IMG/VR virus record: IMGVR_UViG_2700989509_000013
Length of the DNA stretch: 9,417 nucleotides
Source: a virus
Taxonomy: Duplodnaviria; Heunggongvirae; Uroviricota; Caudoviricetes
Reading direction: 5' to 3' (one strand)
The notes below the pieces were generated by a model, which did not search any database, was not told the DNA's origin, and saw only the letters and a program-made list of their open reading frames with translations. The stretch's first letter is position 1, and every line of letters starts with the position of its first letter. Below are positions 256 through 9,417 of this stretch, one piece after another. The position numbers and the translations under genes are program-made.

Positions 256-456
256 GAAAATAAAGGGATAACGATGATAGTTTGAGAAAAACAGAAATAA
301 CACTTTTGTGGCAAAGCATGGTGCCGGGTGCCTCCCGGTGAATTCAGTATCAGCACCTGAATCCGCGATTACCCCATATTCCTTCTTGCTGATTGCCCCA
401 CCGCACAGGGGGATTCACCATGCAGAAGTGTTTTTAATAAACAGCAAACAAAAAAA

Positions 457-1209: not shown

Positions 1210-1225
1210 GGGAAAATAAGTGTAG

Positions 1226-1299
1226 CGCGTTGTACTGGAGTCGAACCAGTGACCGATTGCTTAGAAGGCAATTGCTCTGTCCTGCTGAGCTAACAACGC
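1226..1299 (-). tRNA. tRNA-Arg (anticodon UCU)
   Basis: Clean cloverleaf on the minus strand: acceptor GCGTTGT/ACAACGC, D-arm GCTC/GAGC, anticodon stem ATTGC/GCAAT with loop CTTCTAA, T-arm ACTGG-TTCGACT-CCAGT. CCA not encoded. Confidence 0.9.
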
Positions 1300-1312
1300 A
1301 GAATACCGATAA

Positions 1313-1388
1313 TGGACCACCACCGGGGACTCGAACCTCGCACACTCAACTTAAAGGGTTGACGCTCTTTCCTGATGGCTAGTGGCGG
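1313..1388 (-). tRNA. tRNA-like gene, structurally degenerate (possible pseudo-tRNA; anticodon loop CCUUUAA would read UUU)
   Basis: Acceptor CCGCCAC/GTGGTGG pairs (one G-U) and CCA is encoded; anticodon stem TCAAC/GTTGA is perfect. D-stem has only 2 pairs (GCCA vs GAGC), T-stem has an A-C mismatch, position 33 is C not U, discriminator is U. Confidence 0.45.
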
Positions 1389-1389
1389 T

Positions 1390-1465
1390 TGGTGGCCCTT
1401 GCTGGATTTGAACCAGCGACCTGGCGATTATGAGTCGCTCGCTCTCACCACTGAGCTAAAGGGCC
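1390..1465 (-). tRNA. tRNA with anticodon CAU (Ile2/Met type, ileX/ileZ-like), CCA encoded
   Basis: GGCCCTTTAGCTCAGTGGTGAGAGCGAGCGACTCATAATCGCCAGGTCGCTGGTTCAAATCCAGCAAGGGCCACCA: 7-bp acceptor, GCTC/GAGC D-stem, loop CTCATAA, T-arm GCTGG-TTCAAAT-CCAGC. Closely resembles remembered E. coli ileX. Confidence 0.9.
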
Positions 1466-4496: not shown

Positions 4497-4652
4497 TTAC
4501 TCCTCAGGTTCGTAAACTGTGAAGACAGCGACCTCCGTCTGGCCGGTTCGGATTCGTACCTCGCAGAGGTCTTTCCTCGTTACCAGTGCCGTCACTATGA
4601 CGGTTAAACAGATGACGATCAGGGCGATTAACATCGCCTTTTGCTGCTTCAT
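4497..4652 (-). CDS. hok: Hok-family type I toxin (HokD/RelF-like), 51 aa
   Basis: MKQQKAMLIALIVICLTVIVTALVTRKDLCEVRIRTGQTEVAVFTVYEPEE is a near-exact match to remembered HokD. ATG at 4650-4652 with AAGGAG 9 nt upstream; an in-frame upstream ATG at 4709 gives the 70-aa track ORF. Confidence 0.9.
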   Translation of the reverse strand: MKQQKAMLIALIVICLTVIVTALVTRKDLCEVRIRTGQTEVAVFTVYEPEE

Positions 4653-4830
4653 AGCCTGCTTCTCCTTGCCTTTCGGCACGTAAGAGGCTAACCTACATTT
4701 GTGAGACATAGATTGGGCCTCAGATTAATGTTAAGCGTCTTGCAGGACGCCGAATGTTAACTGGGGCTTTTCTCTATCTGCCTTTGGTGTTCATGCCTGA
4801 GACAGATAGCCTCAAGCACCCGCAGCCATT
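4653..4830 (-). promoter_or_regulatory. hok mRNA leader region (expected site of mok-like overlap, fold-back elements and antisense Sok-like RNA; not resolved)
   Basis: Position relative to hok plus inverted repeat CTATCTG/CAGATAG at about 4769-4808. Sok promoter could not be pinned down by eye. Confidence 0.3.
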
Positions 4831-6728: not shown

Positions 6729-7811
6729 TTACCCCCTGAAGCCCGGTGGAATTTCGGTATCCGGTTCAGAAATATGATTCACACAACGCTGGTTGTTCGT
6801 GCCGCTTACCGGGAGCAACCAGGGGTTTTCAAAATTTCGGTCCGGTCCAAAAAACGTCGTCGCTCGCTGAACAAATTCCGTTCCAGTTTTCCCGGTAACC
6901 GCCAGATATCTTGCGTAACGCCTCACGCCATCCAGCATGGCCTCTGGTGGCACCCCCTCGCGTAATCTGGCCTTCCAGGCACTGAAAGCGGATTTCTTCG
7001 GGTTTGCCCCGGCACGCAACGGGTACTCCCGCCAGACCTGTTCGAACACATCCGGATAATCCACTCGTCCCACAGACTGCCCGGTGTTTTCCGGGACTAC
7101 CCGATCGGCTTCCCACTGAATGGCGGAATCGGCTTCAGGCTGCTGCAGTTGGAGTGATTGCTCCGGCCTTGCGGTCATCACCTGCTGCACAGCGCCCGAA
7201 TCGGCTTTCAGCGCATACGCTGAATCGGCTTCCGGTGTCGTGCCTGCTGGCTGACCAGGATTGACGGTCTGAACATCCCCTGCCTGGTTCGTGGCGTTTT
7301 TTACGCCATGGACCATAGTGTTTTGATCTTCTTTATCTGTATCTTTATCTGTATCTTTATCTGTATCTTTATCTGTCGTGACTTGCCGTGACATGTGCGT
7401 GACATTTCGTGACGCGCCGTGACAATCGCCATTTTGTTCCCGCTTTCTTTCCCTCTCTCGCTGCGCCCTCTTGCGCTCTGCAGGAGATTTTGCGGTTTGC
7501 GAAATATTGCCGTTGTCCTCTTTCAGCACCTGGCGTTTTTCCCATCCAGTGATTAAATCACCATCAAGTACCCGCCCCTGCATCGTCTGCAAAATTGAAT
7601 CAATTACCTCTTCTGTCACGTCGAGCGCACTTGCCAAATCTTCTGTCGTGACATCAATGTGACCTCGCGTGACATTTCGTGACGCGCTCACCAGGAGGTG
7701 GATATACACTGCCATCACTGTTGCAATTGGCTGCCCTGACACCCTGGCAATTGTTCGCCACTTAGGGTCATTTGGCATGTCATGCCATAATCTGAGCCAG
7801 GCGTTGGCCAT
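6729..7811 (-). CDS. Phage replication initiator (lambda O-like replisome organiser) with iterons inside the coding sequence
   Basis: 360-aa ORF from ATG 7809-7811 (GAGGTGA just upstream; track start at 7817 is GTG). N-terminal MANAWLRLWHDMPNDPKWRTIA…, central DKDT x4 linker, C-terminal …FEQVWREYPLRAGANPKKSAFSAWKARL… resembling remembered phage replication-protein C-terminal domains. Sits directly downstream of the cro-like/YdaT-like genes. Confidence 0.7.
   Translation of the reverse strand: MANAWLRLWHDMPNDPKWRTIARVSGQPIATVMAVYIHLLVSASRNVTRGHIDVTTEDLASALDVTEEVIDSILQTMQGRVLDGDLITGWEKRQVLKEDNGNISQTAKSPAERKRAQRERERKREQNGDCHGASRNVTHMSRQVTTDKDTDKDTDKDTDKEDQNTMVHGVKNATNQAGDVQTVNPGQPAGTTPEADSAYALKADSGAVQQVMTARPEQSLQLQQPEADSAIQWEADRVVPENTGQSVGRVDYPDVFEQVWREYPLRAGANPKKSAFSAWKARLREGVPPEAMLDGVRRYARYLAVTGKTGTEFVQRATTFFGPDRNFENPWLLPVSGTNNQRCVNHISEPDTEIPPGFRG
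7329..7376. repeat. Tandem 12-bp repeat, about 4 copies (CTTTATCTGTAT; 6-bp periodicity TATCTK), AT-rich
   Basis: Read directly at 7331-7376; encodes the DKDTDKDTDKDTDK linker on the minus strand. Immediately adjacent to iteron array A. Confidence 0.9.
7375..7425. repeat. Iteron array A: five direct CGTGAC repeats at about 10.5-bp spacing (probable origin of replication)
   Basis: CGTGAC begins at 7377, 7387, 7398, 7408 and 7418 (spacings 10, 11, 10, 10), in phase with the DNA helix and flanked by the AT-rich tandem repeat. Confidence 0.7.
7645..7687. repeat. Iteron array B: four GTGAC repeats at about 10-bp spacing
   Basis: GTGAC begins at 7648, 7659, 7668 and 7678. A 21-bp stretch GCGTGACATTTCGTGACGCGC (7667-7687) is repeated exactly at 7397-7417 in array A. 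Confidence 0.6.
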
Positions 7812-7882
7812 ACTCACCTCTTTTGATACCGAATCTTTTTACTCACAAATTGCCGGAAGTGATCCGGTATGAATATTGCGAG

Positions 7883-8308
7883 TCAATGCACAGCCACAAT
7901 ATTTCCTGCAGGGCCACCTCGATTTATCTGGTTGAAACCAGCGATCGCCACTGCGACAAAATCATCAGCGTCTCTCACCAGTCGCTCCCGCGTCTCCACC
8001 AGCTCCCGAAAATAAGCTGAACTGTGGCTGCGCATTCTGGCCACCAGCAAAGGTGGCATTGCCTTTTCGATCGCTGGTAACAGCGCCTGAATTTTTTTAA
8101 CCGCATCAGGAGTATCTTTCTCCACCCAGCGGAAAATTTTCTGAGTATTGCGAGCCAGGGCTTCCGGATGGCTGTCGTCATACAGTTCAGGAAACGTCAT
8201 ACCCAACTCAAAATAAGCCTGGGTTATTCCAGCTGCTGGAACTTTTTCGCCATCAGGACGCGCCCAGGCATTCATCGCCATGCGGATGTGTTCATGCTTG
8301 ATTTTCAT
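7883..8308 (-). CDS. YdaT-like prophage regulatory protein
   Basis: 141-aa product begins MKIKHEHI…, matching the remembered N-terminus of Rac prophage YdaT. ATG at 8306-8308, GGAG 8 nt upstream; overlaps the cro-like gene end by 17 nt. Confidence 0.7.
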   Translation of the reverse strand: MKIKHEHIRMAMNAWARPDGEKVPAAGITQAYFELGMTFPELYDDSHPEALARNTQKIFRWVEKDTPDAVKKIQALLPAIEKAMPPLLVARMRSHSSAYFRELVETRERLVRDADDFVAVAIAGFNQINRGGPAGNIVAVH

Positions 8309-8567
8309 GAATCAACTCCGGTGTATTTGGTGTGTTAGCCTTATCTCCAGCAGGCAACCCGTCAGTTGGATTCGGGTATAAATCTGGTCGCAATTCATGA
8401 GGAGTAACCCCAGTTGCAATATAAATTTGACGAACCCGTTCTCCCGTCGGCACTCGACCATTGTATTCATTTGCCCATTTGTGTATTTGAGATGGCCAAG
8501 CCCCTATTGCACGCCCTAGCGGACGAATACCACCAGCAATCTTTATTGCTTTGTCCAATGCTGTCAT
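8292..8567 (-). CDS. Cro-like HTH regulator of the YdaS/DicC family
   Basis: 91-aa product with …LGRAIGAWPSQIHKWANEYNGRVPTGERVRQIYIATGVTPHELRPDLY…, the YdaS/DicC-type pattern (…HELRPD). ATG 8565-8567 with GGAGG 4-5 nt upstream; divergent from the repressor gene. Confidence 0.75.
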   Translation of the reverse strand: MTALDKAIKIAGGIRPLGRAIGAWPSQIHKWANEYNGRVPTGERVRQIYIATGVTPHELRPDLYPNPTDGLPAGDKANTPNTPELIHENQA

Positions 8568-8595
8568 ACAACCTCCAGTTCAACTAACCACAACG

Positions 8596-8624
8596 ATTGT
8601 TCACTTAAAACGAACATAAGTCAA
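8596..8624 (-). promoter_or_regulatory. PR-like promoter with overlapping operator (drives cro-like operon)
   Basis: Minus strand: -35 TTGACT (plus 8619-8624), 17-bp spacer, -10 AACAAT (plus 8596-8601). Spacer and -10 contain the inverted repeat TTGTTC-N9-GAACA (plus 8597-8617). Confidence 0.5.
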
Positions 8625-8636
8625 CACCTCGAGGAA

Positions 8637-8664
8637 TTGTTAGTGTTCACTGAACGGTTATAAT
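8637..8664 (+). promoter_or_regulatory. PRM-like promoter for the repressor gene, giving a leaderless mRNA
   Basis: -35 TTGTTA (8637-8642), 16-bp spacer, perfect -10 TATAAT (8659-8664), 6 nt before the ATG at 8671 with no Shine-Dalgarno. Spacer carries the GTTCAcTGAAC palindrome (8645-8655). Confidence 0.5.
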
Positions 8665-8670
8665 TGCCAA

Positions 8671-9060
8671 ATGGACATGAGAAAAAAGCAATACGACACC
8701 CCGCTAGCAGAAAGGTTAGATACGATCTCTCAACAGCATCATTTAAGTGGTTCAGATTTAGCGCGTATCGCTGGTGTAGGTCGTTCATCAGTCAACGCAT
8801 GGAAAAAAAGAGGAACAATCAGTAAAGATTCCGCAGCCAAAATTGCAGAAGCCACAAACGTTTCCCTTTCTTGGCTACTGACAGGGAAAGAAGAGACAAA
8901 TAGAGAGGCGCTTGATGATGACGAGAAGGCCCTGCTTGATGTTTACAGAAACCTGCCACCTGTAGAACGTAGAAATATGCTGGCAGCTTTTCAAATGCGA
9001 CTCCAAAAACTGACCGAATTTTACTCAGAATACGTCGACCCAATAACACGACAAAAATAA
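8671..9060 (+). CDS. DicA/CI-like phage repressor (XRE-family HTH, no peptidase domain)
   Basis: 129-aa product with N-terminal HTH (…LSGSDLARIAGVGRSSVNAWKKRGTIS…) and C-terminal helical region …LLDVYRNLPPVERRNMLAAFQMRL… resembling remembered DicA. Divergent from the cro-like gene. Confidence 0.8.
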   Translation: MDMRKKQYDTPLAERLDTISQQHHLSGSDLARIAGVGRSSVNAWKKRGTISKDSAAKIAEATNVSLSWLLTGKEETNREALDDDEKALLDVYRNLPPVERRNMLAAFQMRLQKLTEFYSEYVDPITRQK

Positions 9061-9081
9061 TTCTTTATTTTACAGAATCAT

Positions 9082-9112
9082 ACCGCCACAAGGCGGTTTT
9101 TTTTTGTTTTTT
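9082..9112 (+). terminator. Rho-independent terminator after the repressor gene
   Basis: Hairpin CCGCC-ACAA-GGCGG (9083-9096) followed by T9, G, T6. Confidence 0.6.
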
Positions 9113-9126
9113 ACGTATTCATCATG

Positions 9127-9155
9127 TTGACTTTTGTTCACCTAGAGAGAACAAT
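9127..9155 (+). promoter_or_regulatory. PL-like promoter with overlapping operator
   Basis: -35 TTGACT (9127-9132), 17-bp spacer, -10 AACAAT (9150-9155); perfect inverted repeat TTGTTC-N9-GAACAA at 9134-9154. Same design as the PR-like promoter. Confidence 0.45.
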
Positions 9156-9233
9156 GTATTCCATCAAAGCACAACGGTGCGACAGGTCTTAGTTCCGCTA
9201 CCCCGGCGTTAAGGGGAAACAGAGGATTTCTCA

Positions 9234-9417
9234 GTGGGCGAAGTCAAACATCAGAATGGAAGGCATCAAGGGATCAGCAAAGAAACAGCGATGGCGCTTT
9301 ATATTGACATCAGCGCCATTGCCGGACAGGTAAGAGTTATCAGAGCGGTAACTAAGCGGTATGCGCCTTTACTTCAGAAAGTCTCTGGTGAGTGCACCGA
9401 AGATATTGTCAACGATT
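9234..9417 (+). CDS. Partial ORF of the PL-like operon (5' end only; start uncertain, GTG 9234 or ATG 9290)
   Basis: Open to the window edge: (V)GEVKHQNGRHQGISKETAMALYIDISAIAGQVRVIRAVTKRYAPLLQKVSGECTEDIVND. AGAGGA lies 7 nt upstream of the GTG. No family recognised. Confidence 0.25.
   Translation, partial: MGEVKHQNGRHQGISKETAMALYIDISAIAGQVRVIRAVTKRYAPLLQKVSGECTEDIVND

What the first reader, a model, noticed from the sequence alone, without database searches (positions are those of the whole stretch)
8637..8671. Repressor gene appears to be expressed from a leaderless mRNA
A perfect TATAAT ends 6 nt before the repressor ATG, and there is no Shine-Dalgarno sequence. Transcription would therefore start at or within a base of the start codon, as for lambda cI from PRM. 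This suggests the repressor's maintenance expression follows the same leaderless logic despite a different repressor family.
Basis: inference. Interest (0 to 1): 0.35.

Follow-up and report, generated by a model that had tools for sequence, protein, structure and literature searches.

The report
Leaderless prophage repressor gene, known type
The repressor gene of this E. coli lambda-like prophage has its promoter placed so that the mRNA should begin at the start codon; this is real and conserved, but the trick is already known from lambda cI and several other prophage repressors.

Summary
TATAAT lies at 8659-8664, followed by six bases (TGCCAA) and then ATG at 8671. A -35 TTGTTA sits at 8637-8642 with a 16-bp spacer, and there is no Shine-Dalgarno sequence. 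The gene (8671-9060, 129 aa) encodes a short repressor with a Cro/CI-type HTH and no protease domain, distantly related to DicA. It lies divergent to a cro-like gene and a YdaT-type (cII-like) gene.

In 25 homologous loci from about a dozen enterobacterial genera, 22 carry a TAnnnT hexamer ending 6-7 nt before the first ATG. The background is 2% of all ATGs. The spacer sequence and the length of the protein's N-terminus both vary. Most of the divergent cro-like genes for which the script picked the family-typical start have a canonical ribosome-binding site.

The same geometry occurs in lambda PRM (my recollection) and in PaaR2 of CP-933P, whose start was mapped experimentally. Published dRNA-seq gives leaders of 0, 0 and 3 nt for racR, ymfK and dicA.

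It is a new member of a known kind. Caveats: the start could lie 1-2 nt upstream; a second ATG at 8677 is sometimes annotated as the start; a YdaT-activated upstream promoter probably also gives a leadered transcript.

The parts
8637..8642 (+). -35 hexamer TTGTTA of the repressor (PRM-like) promoter
   Evidence: 4/6 match to TTGACA, 16-bp spacer to TATAAT. The TTG is conserved in relatives.
8644..8656 (.). Operator-like palindrome TGTTCA-C-TGAACG inside the promoter spacer (predicted autoregulation or Cro-like repression site)
   Evidence: D9: 8644-8654 is a 91% copy of 8598-8608, the PR operator half-site. In Salmonella and Enterobacter relatives both this site and the PR site change together to TTAGC-type half-sites. 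The function is inferred.
8659..8664 (+). -10 hexamer, perfect TATAAT
   Evidence: A TAnnnT at this distance is present in 22 of 25 homologous loci.
8665..8670 (+). Six-base spacer TGCCAA between the -10 and the start codon
   Evidence: The sequence is not conserved among relatives but the length (6-7 nt) is.
8671..8673 (+). ATG1: predicted transcription start (A at 8671) and translation start
   Evidence: It is the 7th base after the -10, the usual sigma-70 start position (general knowledge). The same geometry holds in paaR2, whose start was mapped.
8677..8679 (+). ATG2: alternative start used in some NCBI annotations (127-aa form)
   Evidence: More distant relatives begin at the aligned position, but in them the -10 hexamer sits 6-7 nt before that single ATG.
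8671..9060 (+). Repressor gene, 129 aa: Cro/CI-type HTH plus a DicA-like C-terminal helical domain, no S24 peptidase
   Evidence: Pfam PF07022 47.9 bits and PF01381 34.2 bits. hhalign against DicA: 97% probability, E 8.6e-11 over 111 columns. PHROG transcriptional regulator and repressor families.
9082..9107 (+). Intrinsic terminator after the repressor gene, predicting a monocistronic mRNA of about 435 nt
   Evidence: a 6-bp stem with 5 G-C pairs followed by a T9 run.
8596..8624 (-). PR-like promoter (TTGACT, 17 bp, AACAAT) for the cro-like operon, overlapping operator TTGTTCACTTAAAACGAACA (8597-8616)
   Evidence: (D1, I1). The predicted start near 8589 lies about 82 bp from 8671.
8572..8576 (-). 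Canonical Shine-Dalgarno GGAGG of the divergent cro-like gene, in contrast to the repressor gene
   Evidence: Most relatives' cro-like genes for which the script found the family-typical start also have GGAG, AAGG or GAGG.
8292..8567 (-). cro-like gene (YdaS family, 91 aa)
   Evidence: Pfam PF15943 39 bits. PHROG 35 transcriptional repressor, E 5.8e-25.
7883..8308 (-). cII-like gene (YdaT family, 141 aa)
   Evidence: Pfam PF06254. 82% identical to CP-933P YdaT.
8298..8315 (.). YdaT binding site TTGATT-N6-AATCAA, marking a probable PRE-like promoter region that would give a leadered repressor transcript
   Evidence: Identical to the sequence in CP-933P. The site was defined by footprinting in PMC9986795. 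YdaT-dependent PRE activity is shown in PMC8630535. I could not locate the promoter hexamers in the window.
9127..9155 (+). PL-like promoter (TTGACT, 17 bp, AACAAT) with operator TTGTTCACCTAGAGAGAACA (9134-9153), a mirror copy of PR
   Evidence: (D1 80% identity, I1 31-nt arms).

Best explanation
This is the maintenance (PRM-type) promoter of a lambda-like prophage immunity region. RNA polymerase uses TTGTTA (8637-8642) and TATAAT (8659-8664). It starts transcription at or within 1-2 bases of the A of ATG at 8671. The repressor mRNA therefore has no 5' leader and no ribosome-binding site. Ribosomes are expected to bind the 5'-terminal AUG directly, as shown for lambda cI mRNA, and to make the 129-aa MDMRKK... 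protein. Transcription then stops at the terminator at 9082-9107. An operator-like palindrome sits between the -35 and the -10, so the promoter is probably shut down by the repressor itself and/or by the cro-like protein. The promoter is near-consensus, so it probably does not need activation the way lambda PRM does. A second, YdaT-activated promoter further upstream probably gives a leadered transcript during establishment of lysogeny. What is shown here: the sequence geometry, the absence of a Shine-Dalgarno, the conservation across relatives, and the gene context. What is inferred: the start site, the leaderless translation, the autoregulation and the second promoter.
For: - Geometry: TATAAT + 6 nt + ATG, a promoter scoring 10/12, and no Shine-Dalgarno.
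- Conservation: 22 of 25 homologous loci (31-100% protein identity to the query by tblastn or BLASTP) have TAnnnT ending 6-7 nt before the first ATG. These come from Escherichia, Lelliottia, Salmonella, Enterobacter, Cronobacter, Raoultella, Erwinia, Sodalis, Chimaeribacter, Serratia, Xenorhabdus and Phlomobacter.
- Redundancy control: after clustering the upstream 45 nt at 70% identity, 19 of 22 clusters keep the feature.
- Background: 2.1% of all ATGs in the same loci, and 1 of 205 first ATGs of ORFs of 60 aa or more.
- The spacer bases differ between loci (tgccaa, tccgtt, tattga, ttgagt, cgaagc, cacagc, cgatcg, taggga, gtcaag...). The N-terminus also varies in length (MDMRKK, MKKK, MSKNTQTT, MKTETQHE). 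The hexamer nevertheless tracks the first ATG.
- Sequenced phages show the same layout: PHB10 TACAAT+6, SEN34 TATTCT+6, mEp237 GATACT+7, Kp4882-1 TACAAT+7.
- Most divergent cro-like genes for which the script picked the family-typical start (MTxLDKAI-type) carry GGAG, AAGG or GAGG.
- Published experimental precedents in the same kind of module: paaR2 of CP-933P (GATAAT+6+ATG) has its start at the A of ATG by 5' RACE and an N-terminus of MQKKE by Edman sequencing. dRNA-seq gives leader lengths of 0 for racR, 0 for ymfK and 3 for dicA.
- The window's YdaT is 82% identical to CP-933P YdaT, so this is the same module type with a swapped immunity cassette.
- The first 80 nt of the predicted mRNA fold weakly (-7.1 kcal/mol, z = +1.39) and the centroid structure leaves the AUG unpaired.
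Against: - No transcript mapping exists for this locus, and I did not look for transcriptome data for its close alleles.
- The base before the predicted start is A, not a pyrimidine. Starts at 8669 or 8670 are therefore plausible, and dicA has a 3-nt leader.
- A second ATG at 8677 aligns with the single start of more distant relatives and is the annotated start in many genomes.
- Three of 25 loci lack the geometry: L032, L015 and L016.
- The loci are related by descent, so the binomial P values overstate independence.
- The window's repressor and cro-like protein have no detectable sequence similarity to PaaR2 and its YdaS. The best experimental precedent is therefore an analogue, not a homologue.
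Confidence: 0.78

Rival explanations
1. The mRNA has a very short leader rather than none. Transcription starts 1-3 nt upstream (8668-8670), as at dicA, and translation still starts at ATG1 without a Shine-Dalgarno.
For: The bases at 8669-8671 are AAA, so several purine starts are available, and C-A at 8668/8669 is a pyrimidine-purine step. The dicA start lies 3 nt upstream of its ATG in dRNA-seq. Some relatives have 7 rather than 6 nt between the hexamer and the ATG.
Against: The favoured sigma-70 start position, the 7th base after the -10, is exactly the A of ATG1. racR, ymfK and paaR2 have 0-nt leaders. The dominant spacing in the family is 6 nt.
Confidence: 0.13
2. ATG2 (8677) is the real start codon. 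The protein is 127 aa and the mRNA carries a 6-nt leader (AUGGAC).
For: NCBI annotates the 127-aa form in many genomes that have the same DNA. More distant relatives start at the aligned position, with MKKK or MKEE.
Against: In relatives with a single ATG, the -10 hexamer lies 6-7 nt before that ATG (L024, L026, L028-L030). In the MDM clade (window, Lelliottia L003, Salmonella L034) the hexamer lies 6 nt before ATG1 instead. The promoter thus follows the first ATG. ATG1 and the Asp codon are kept in all three genera, with a synonymous GAC/GAT change. There is no Shine-Dalgarno before ATG2. From the literature on E. coli leaderless mRNAs, as I recall it, ribosomes prefer a 5'-terminal AUG.
Confidence: 0.06
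3. The TATAAT is not the working promoter. The repressor is made from a long transcript that starts at a YdaT-activated PRE-like promoter or elsewhere upstream, and is translated from an internal ATG without a Shine-Dalgarno.
For: The exact YdaT site TTGATTTTCATGAATCAA is present at 8298-8315. YdaT activates a PRE promoter in CP-933P.
Against: In CP-933P both promoters exist, and PRM933P has basal activity with its start at the ATG. YdaT comes from the operon that the repressor is predicted to silence (shown for PaaR2 in CP-933P), so this route should not sustain maintenance in a lysogen. Family-wide conservation of a -10 hexamer at a fixed distance has no explanation under this model. As an additional establishment route it is likely. 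As the sole route it is unlikely.
Confidence: 0.03

Closest known systems
Lambda cI expressed from PRM (the classic leaderless mRNA)
   Same: The repressor gene is divergent from cro, and a -10 hexamer is followed by 6 nt and then ATG (lambda TAGATT-TAACGT-ATG, from memory). There is no Shine-Dalgarno. The coding start is A-rich and lysine-rich. Operators overlap both divergent promoters. A cII-type activated upstream promoter is likely.
   Different: The protein here has 129 aa and no S24 self-cleavage domain. The promoter is near-consensus (10/12) rather than weak and activator-dependent. I found only two clear operator copies in the divergent region rather than three.
PaaR2 / PRM933P of cryptic prophage CP-933P, E. 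coli O157:H7 (Jurenas et al. 2021, PMC8630535)
   Same: The module layout is the same: repressor, then divergent ydaS-like and ydaT genes. YdaT is 82% identical and its binding site is identical. The geometry is GATAAT + 6 nt + ATG. Leaderless expression was shown there by 5' RACE, Edman sequencing and mass spectrometry.
   Different: The window's repressor and cro-like protein show no detectable similarity to PaaR2 and its YdaS, and the operators differ (GTTTAGTAA versus TGTTCA). No paaA2-parE2 toxin-antitoxin genes follow the repressor here; a terminator does.
DicA (Qin), RacR (Rac) and YmfK (e14) of E. coli K-12
   Same: These are prophage repressors whose mRNAs have leaders of 3, 0 and 0 nt by dRNA-seq (Romero et al. 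2014, PMC4681348). The window's protein is a full-length distant homologue of DicA (hhalign 97%). DicA and RacR are, like it, short repressors without a protease domain.
   Different: Identity to DicA is only about 22-25%, and the score is below NCBI's DicA subfamily cut-off (37 versus 101 bits). Similarity to RacR is limited to the HTH. The dicA -10 geometry is less clean.
Gifsy-type repressors (GfoR/GtgR) controlled by antirepressors (Lemire et al. 2011, PMC3121763)
   Same: They are short repressors without a self-cleavage domain that the authors group with DicA and RacR. A 74%-identical homologue of the window's protein is widespread in Salmonella enterica (P0050).
   Different: I did not test whether P0050 or the window's protein is a GfoR/GtgR orthologue. 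I did not look for an antirepressor gene. That paper does not mention transcription start sites or start codons (none of those search terms occurs in its text).

Membership tests
Leaderless mRNAs of prophage or mobile-element repressors (lambda cI type) | The primary transcript's 5' end coincides with the A of the start codon (or the leader is only a few nt) | not testable with these tools
   Only predicted: the -10 hexamer ends 6 nt before ATG1. This needs 5' RACE or dRNA-seq.
Leaderless mRNAs of prophage or mobile-element repressors (lambda cI type) | No Shine-Dalgarno sequence at functional distance from the start codon | tested here: met
   No GGAG, GAGG, AGGA or AAGG in -18..-4; that stretch is occupied by the -10 hexamer. 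The divergent cro-like gene has GGAGG.
Leaderless mRNAs of prophage or mobile-element repressors (lambda cI type) | The start codon is AUG | tested here: met
   ATG at 8671. The chosen start (the first in-frame ATG of the family alignment) is ATG in all 25 homologous loci.
Leaderless mRNAs of prophage or mobile-element repressors (lambda cI type) | A promoter -10 element at the distance that puts +1 on the start codon, conserved among relatives | tested here: met
   22 of 25 loci and 19 of 22 de-replicated upstream clusters, against a 2.1% background. Four sequenced phages show the same.
Leaderless mRNAs of prophage or mobile-element repressors (lambda cI type) | The protein's N-terminus corresponds to the 5'-terminal AUG | not testable with these tools
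   ATG1 versus ATG2 is unresolved by annotation. Comparative geometry favours ATG1.
Lambdoid immunity module (repressor / cro / cII with OR and OL operators) | A repressor gene divergent from a cro-like plus cII-like operon, with repeated operators at PR and PL | tested here: met
   YdaS-family and YdaT-family genes lie on the opposite strand. The PR-like and PL-like promoters are mirror copies that share TTGTTCAC...GAACA.
Pfam PF07022 Phage_CI_repr (CI-type HTH domain) | Score above the Pfam gathering threshold | tested here: met
   47.9 bits against a cut-off of 22. The closest solved structure by sequence is the phage 186 CI HTH, 2fjr.
Lambda CI / LexA-type self-cleaving repressors | A C-terminal S24 peptidase domain | tested here: not met
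   Only HTH families are found in the 129 aa. The C-terminal half aligns with the DicA helical domain.
DicA subfamily (NCBIfam NF007257) | Score above NCBI's curated cut-off | tested here: not met
   37.2 bits against a cut-off of 101, although the alignment is full-length. hhalign gives 97% probability. It is a distant relative, not a subfamily member.
PaaR2 family | Detectable sequence similarity to PaaR2 | tested here: not met
   BLASTP E = 10.

The most novel reading that the evidence does not exclude
The fixed '-10 hexamer, 6-7 nt, first AUG' layout is actively maintained by selection across a whole family of short repressors without a protease domain in Enterobacterales. The promoter follows the first AUG even when the protein's N-terminus grows or shrinks and when operator specificity is swapped. 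That would mean leaderless translation is a required property of lysogenic maintenance, for example by keeping repressor synthesis low, noise-tuned or resistant to stress, and not a lambda-specific accident.
Probability: 0.45. Interest if true: 0.45.

Novelty: new member of a known kind. Interest (0 to 1): 0.22.

Why it matters
[quoted passage not shown] Another repressor lineage with the same layout, conserved in many genera and in sequenced temperate phages, strengthens the view that this is a general design rule of lambda-like immunity switches.

There is also a practical gain. The result argues for the 129-aa start (ATG1) over the 127-aa start used in many genome annotations. It also gives a simple sequence rule (TAnnnT, 6-7 nt, ATG, no Shine-Dalgarno) for calling starts of such repressor genes.

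It does not open a new mechanism.

Tried and rejected
- **Phage DNA search.** A nucleotide search of the immunity region against sequenced phages gave only two short partial hits, so it was no use for comparison. The protein-level search worked instead.
- **Solved structures.** Sequence searches found only HTH-domain matches (186 CI, 434, P22 C2) and nothing for the C-terminal half. I did not predict a structure, because it would not bear on the leaderless question.
- **PaaR2 homology.** I expected PaaR2 to be a homologue. I rebuilt its 5' end from the paper's primers and fetched the locus. There is no sequence similarity, so it serves only as an analogue in a shared module.
- **PRE-like promoter hexamers.** I read the sequence downstream of the YdaT site. 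No convincing -10 or -35 emerged, so I report only the binding site.
- **A third (OR2-like) operator.** I looked for one between 8617 and 8637 and found none.
- **Operator spacing.** The palindrome in the PRM spacer has different half-site spacing from the PR and PL operators. I cannot say which protein binds it.
- **Rfam.** The scan found no known RNA in 8560-9417.
- **Whole junction in E. coli genomes.** No complete E. coli genome in the collection spans window position 9219/9220, so the exact source prophage was not identified.
- **Chance.** I considered a chance TATAAT and rejected it because of the family-wide conservation.

Full report
**1. What is in the sequence**

On the + strand the window reads ...ATTGTTAGTGTTCACTGAACGGTTATAATTGCCAAATGGACATGAGAAAAAAG....
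- TATAAT occupies 8659-8664.
- TGCCAA occupies 8665-8670.
- ATG at 8671 opens a 129-aa ORF that ends at 9060.

The consensus scan finds TTGTTA (8637-8642), a 16-bp spacer and TATAAT. This scores 10 of 12 and is the best promoter-like site in 8200-9417. No Shine-Dalgarno-like tetramer lies within 18 nt of the ATG. TATAAT-N6-ATG occurs once in the window, against 0.06 expected. TATAAT alone is not enriched.

NCBI annotates near-identical alleles from either ATG, giving 129 aa in L001 and 127 aa in L002.

**2. What the gene and its surroundings are**

The ORF carries a Cro/CI-type HTH: Pfam Phage_CI_repr at 47.9 bits and HTH_3 at 34.2 bits. It has no S24 peptidase domain.

It is a distant, full-length relative of DicA.
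- hhalign gives 97% probability and E 8.6e-11 over 111 columns covering both halves.
- BLASTP identity is 25%.
- It scores below NCBI's DicA subfamily cut-off, 37 bits against 101.

On the opposite strand lie a YdaS-family cro-like gene (8567-8292) and a YdaT-family cII-like gene (8308-7883).

A PR-like promoter on the - strand (8624-8596) and a PL-like promoter on the + strand (9127-9155) are mirror copies. They share the operator TTGTTCAC...GAACA. A terminator at 9082-9107 follows the repressor gene.

The region matches E. coli prophages at up to 99% identity. There the neighbours are DUF1391, dicB and kil genes. This is therefore the immunity region of a Rac/Qin/CP-933P-type lambdoid prophage.

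**3. Comparative test**

I collected homologous loci from one-genome-per-species contigs, from contigs encoding database homologues, and from sequenced phages.

Of 25 loci spanning 31-100% protein identity and about a dozen genera, 22 have a TAnnnT hexamer ending 6 or 7 nt before the first ATG of the repressor. After clustering the upstream 45 nt at 70% identity, 19 of 22 clusters keep the feature. The background in the same loci is 2.1% of all ATGs, and 1 of 205 first ATGs of ORFs of 60 aa or more. The loci share ancestry, so the tiny P values are not literal.

Two points show that the spacing, and not merely inherited sequence, is kept.
- The six spacer bases are essentially unconserved between clusters.
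- The N-terminus varies in length (MDMRKK, MKKK, MSKNTQTT, MKTETQHE...) while the hexamer follows the first ATG.

Phages PHB10, SEN34, mEp237 and Kp4882-1 show the same layout.

Most divergent cro-like genes for which the script picked the family-typical start have GGAG, AAGG or GAGG at normal distance; here it is GGAGG at 8576-8572.

An alignment of the intergenic region from five genera is also informative. The promoter hexamers are conserved. The operator half-sites switch together from TGTTCA-type to TTAGC-type, both at PR and inside the PRM-like spacer. This marks the palindrome at 8644-8656 as a real operator and the promoter as regulated.

**4. Experimental precedents**

- Jurenas et al. 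2021 (PMC8630535) mapped the paaR2 start in CP-933P by 5' RACE to the A of the ATG. They confirmed the N-terminus MQKKE by Edman sequencing and the mass by spectrometry.
- I rebuilt the paaR2 5' end from their primers and fetched the locus. It reads GATAAT-TACCAC-ATG, the same 6-nt geometry.
- The window's YdaT is 82% identical to the CP-933P protein. The repressor and cro-like proteins are unrelated in sequence. This is the classic lambdoid swap of an immunity cassette.
- Romero et al. 2014 (PMC4681348) found only five mRNAs with leaders under 10 nt in E. coli K-12. Three encode prophage regulators: racR (0 nt), ymfK (0 nt) and dicA (3 nt).
- The K-12 sequences fit this: racR reads GAATAT-TAAGCA-ATG, and dicA reads TAGCAT followed by 9 nt.
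- Lambda PRM has TAGATT-TAACGT-ATG. This is from my own knowledge and was not checked here.

**5. Mechanism proposed**

Shown here: the geometry, the missing Shine-Dalgarno, the conservation and the module context.

Inferred:
- Sigma-70 RNA polymerase starts at 8671, the 7th base after the -10.
- The mRNA of about 435 nt begins with AUG.
- It is translated without a leader to give the 129-aa protein.
- The promoter is repressed through the spacer operator.

The first 80 nt fold weakly (z = +1.39), and the centroid structure leaves the AUG free. This suits leaderless initiation.

The promoter is near-consensus, so unlike lambda PRM it probably does not need activation. In CP-933P the equivalent promoter has basal activity and is repressed by PaaR2 and YdaS.

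**6. Second route**

The window contains TTGATTTTCATGAATCAA at 8298-8315. This is identical to the YdaT primary site footprinted in CP-933P, where YdaT switches on a PRE promoter reading towards the repressor gene. A leadered transcript during establishment is therefore likely here too. Finding it would not refute the leaderless maintenance transcript. I could not place its hexamers.

**7. Uncertainties**

- The start may fall at 8669 or 8670, because the sequence there is AAA and the base before the predicted start is a purine.
- ATG2 is a minor alternative. The geometry argument favours ATG1: in relatives with one ATG the hexamer sits 6-7 nt before it, and in the MDM clade it sits 6 nt before ATG1.
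- Three loci are exceptions. L032 is a 1.4-kb metagenome contig whose TACAAT lies about 30 nt upstream. The two Pantoea loci have TAATAA and TAATTA instead.

**8. Verdict**

However, leaderless expression of prophage repressors, including ones outside the lambda CI family, is already published. This is a new member of a known kind. Its modest added value is the family-wide conservation and the correction of the start codon. Interest: 0.22.

Noticed in passing
window 8671 vs 8677; L001 3472, L002 3477: NCBI annotation is inconsistent for the same DNA. Some genomes call the repressor from ATG1 (129 aa) and others from ATG2 (127 aa); both forms are abundant in the protein database. The promoter geometry favours ATG1.
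   Followed up: yes
window 8298-8315: A perfect TTGATT-N6-AATCAA inverted repeat spans the cro-like stop and the ydaT start. It is identical to the footprinted YdaT (cII-like) site of CP-933P. Sequence downstream of it diverges completely from CP-933P.
   Followed up: partly
window 8596-8626 and 9125-9155: The PR-like and PL-like promoters with their operators are 31-nt mirror copies (77% complementary). Relatives in Salmonella and Enterobacter keep the promoter hexamers but swap the operator half-sites to TTAGC-type at all sites, indicating a different immunity specificity on the same scaffold.
   Followed up: partly
window 9219/9220 and ORF from 9234 (or ATG 9291) to the window end: Similarity to all complete E. 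coli genomes in the collection stops at about 9219. Beyond it an ORF runs off the window end and matches PHROG 21318 (unknown function, E 8.8e-24) from its internal Met. This is probably a mosaic junction just after PL.
   Followed up: partly
window 4497-4821 (- strand): A hok/sok-type toxin-antitoxin locus. The Rfam sok RNA scores 116.9 bits at 4647-4821, and a 70-aa Hok-like ORF lies at 4497-4709.
   Followed up: no
window 1225-1465 (- strand): Three clustered tRNA genes: Arg (TCT), Lys (TTT) and Met (CAT). They lie next to ORF 1661-2356, which from its position next to a RusA-like ORF I take to be a Q-type antiterminator (not tested). I recall similar tRNA clusters in some lambdoid prophages.
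   Followed up: no
window 280-452 (- strand): Rfam match to the sRNA STnc100, 100.8 bits.
   Followed up: no
window 7330-7424, inside the 362-aa ORF 6729-7817 (- strand): 3.9 perfect copies of a 12-nt unit (TCTTTATCTGTA) encode a TDKD repeat, followed by a looser 10-nt repeat. The near-identical gene in L001 is annotated as a phage replisome organizer. These may be origin iterons inside an O-like replication gene.
   Followed up: no
L036 (phage mEp237) 214-1093; L037 (phage SEN34) 704-1516: In both phages the homologue sits in tandem with a second HTH gene; tblastn found two matching places in each record. Both SEN34 genes, and mEp237 gp38 (the second gene of its pair), are preceded by a -10-like hexamer 6-7 nt before the ATG (TATTCT+6, TAAATT+7, GATACT+7). 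mEp237 gp39 is not. This hints at separately transcribed leaderless genes in a row.
   Followed up: partly
L032 500-534: An exception to the rule. TACAAT is followed after 9 nt by a short dead-end ATG (ATGAATAACCGTAGATAA), and the repressor ATG lies about 30 nt downstream of the hexamer with no Shine-Dalgarno. It may be a decayed or rearranged copy. It is a single 1.4-kb contig.
   Followed up: no
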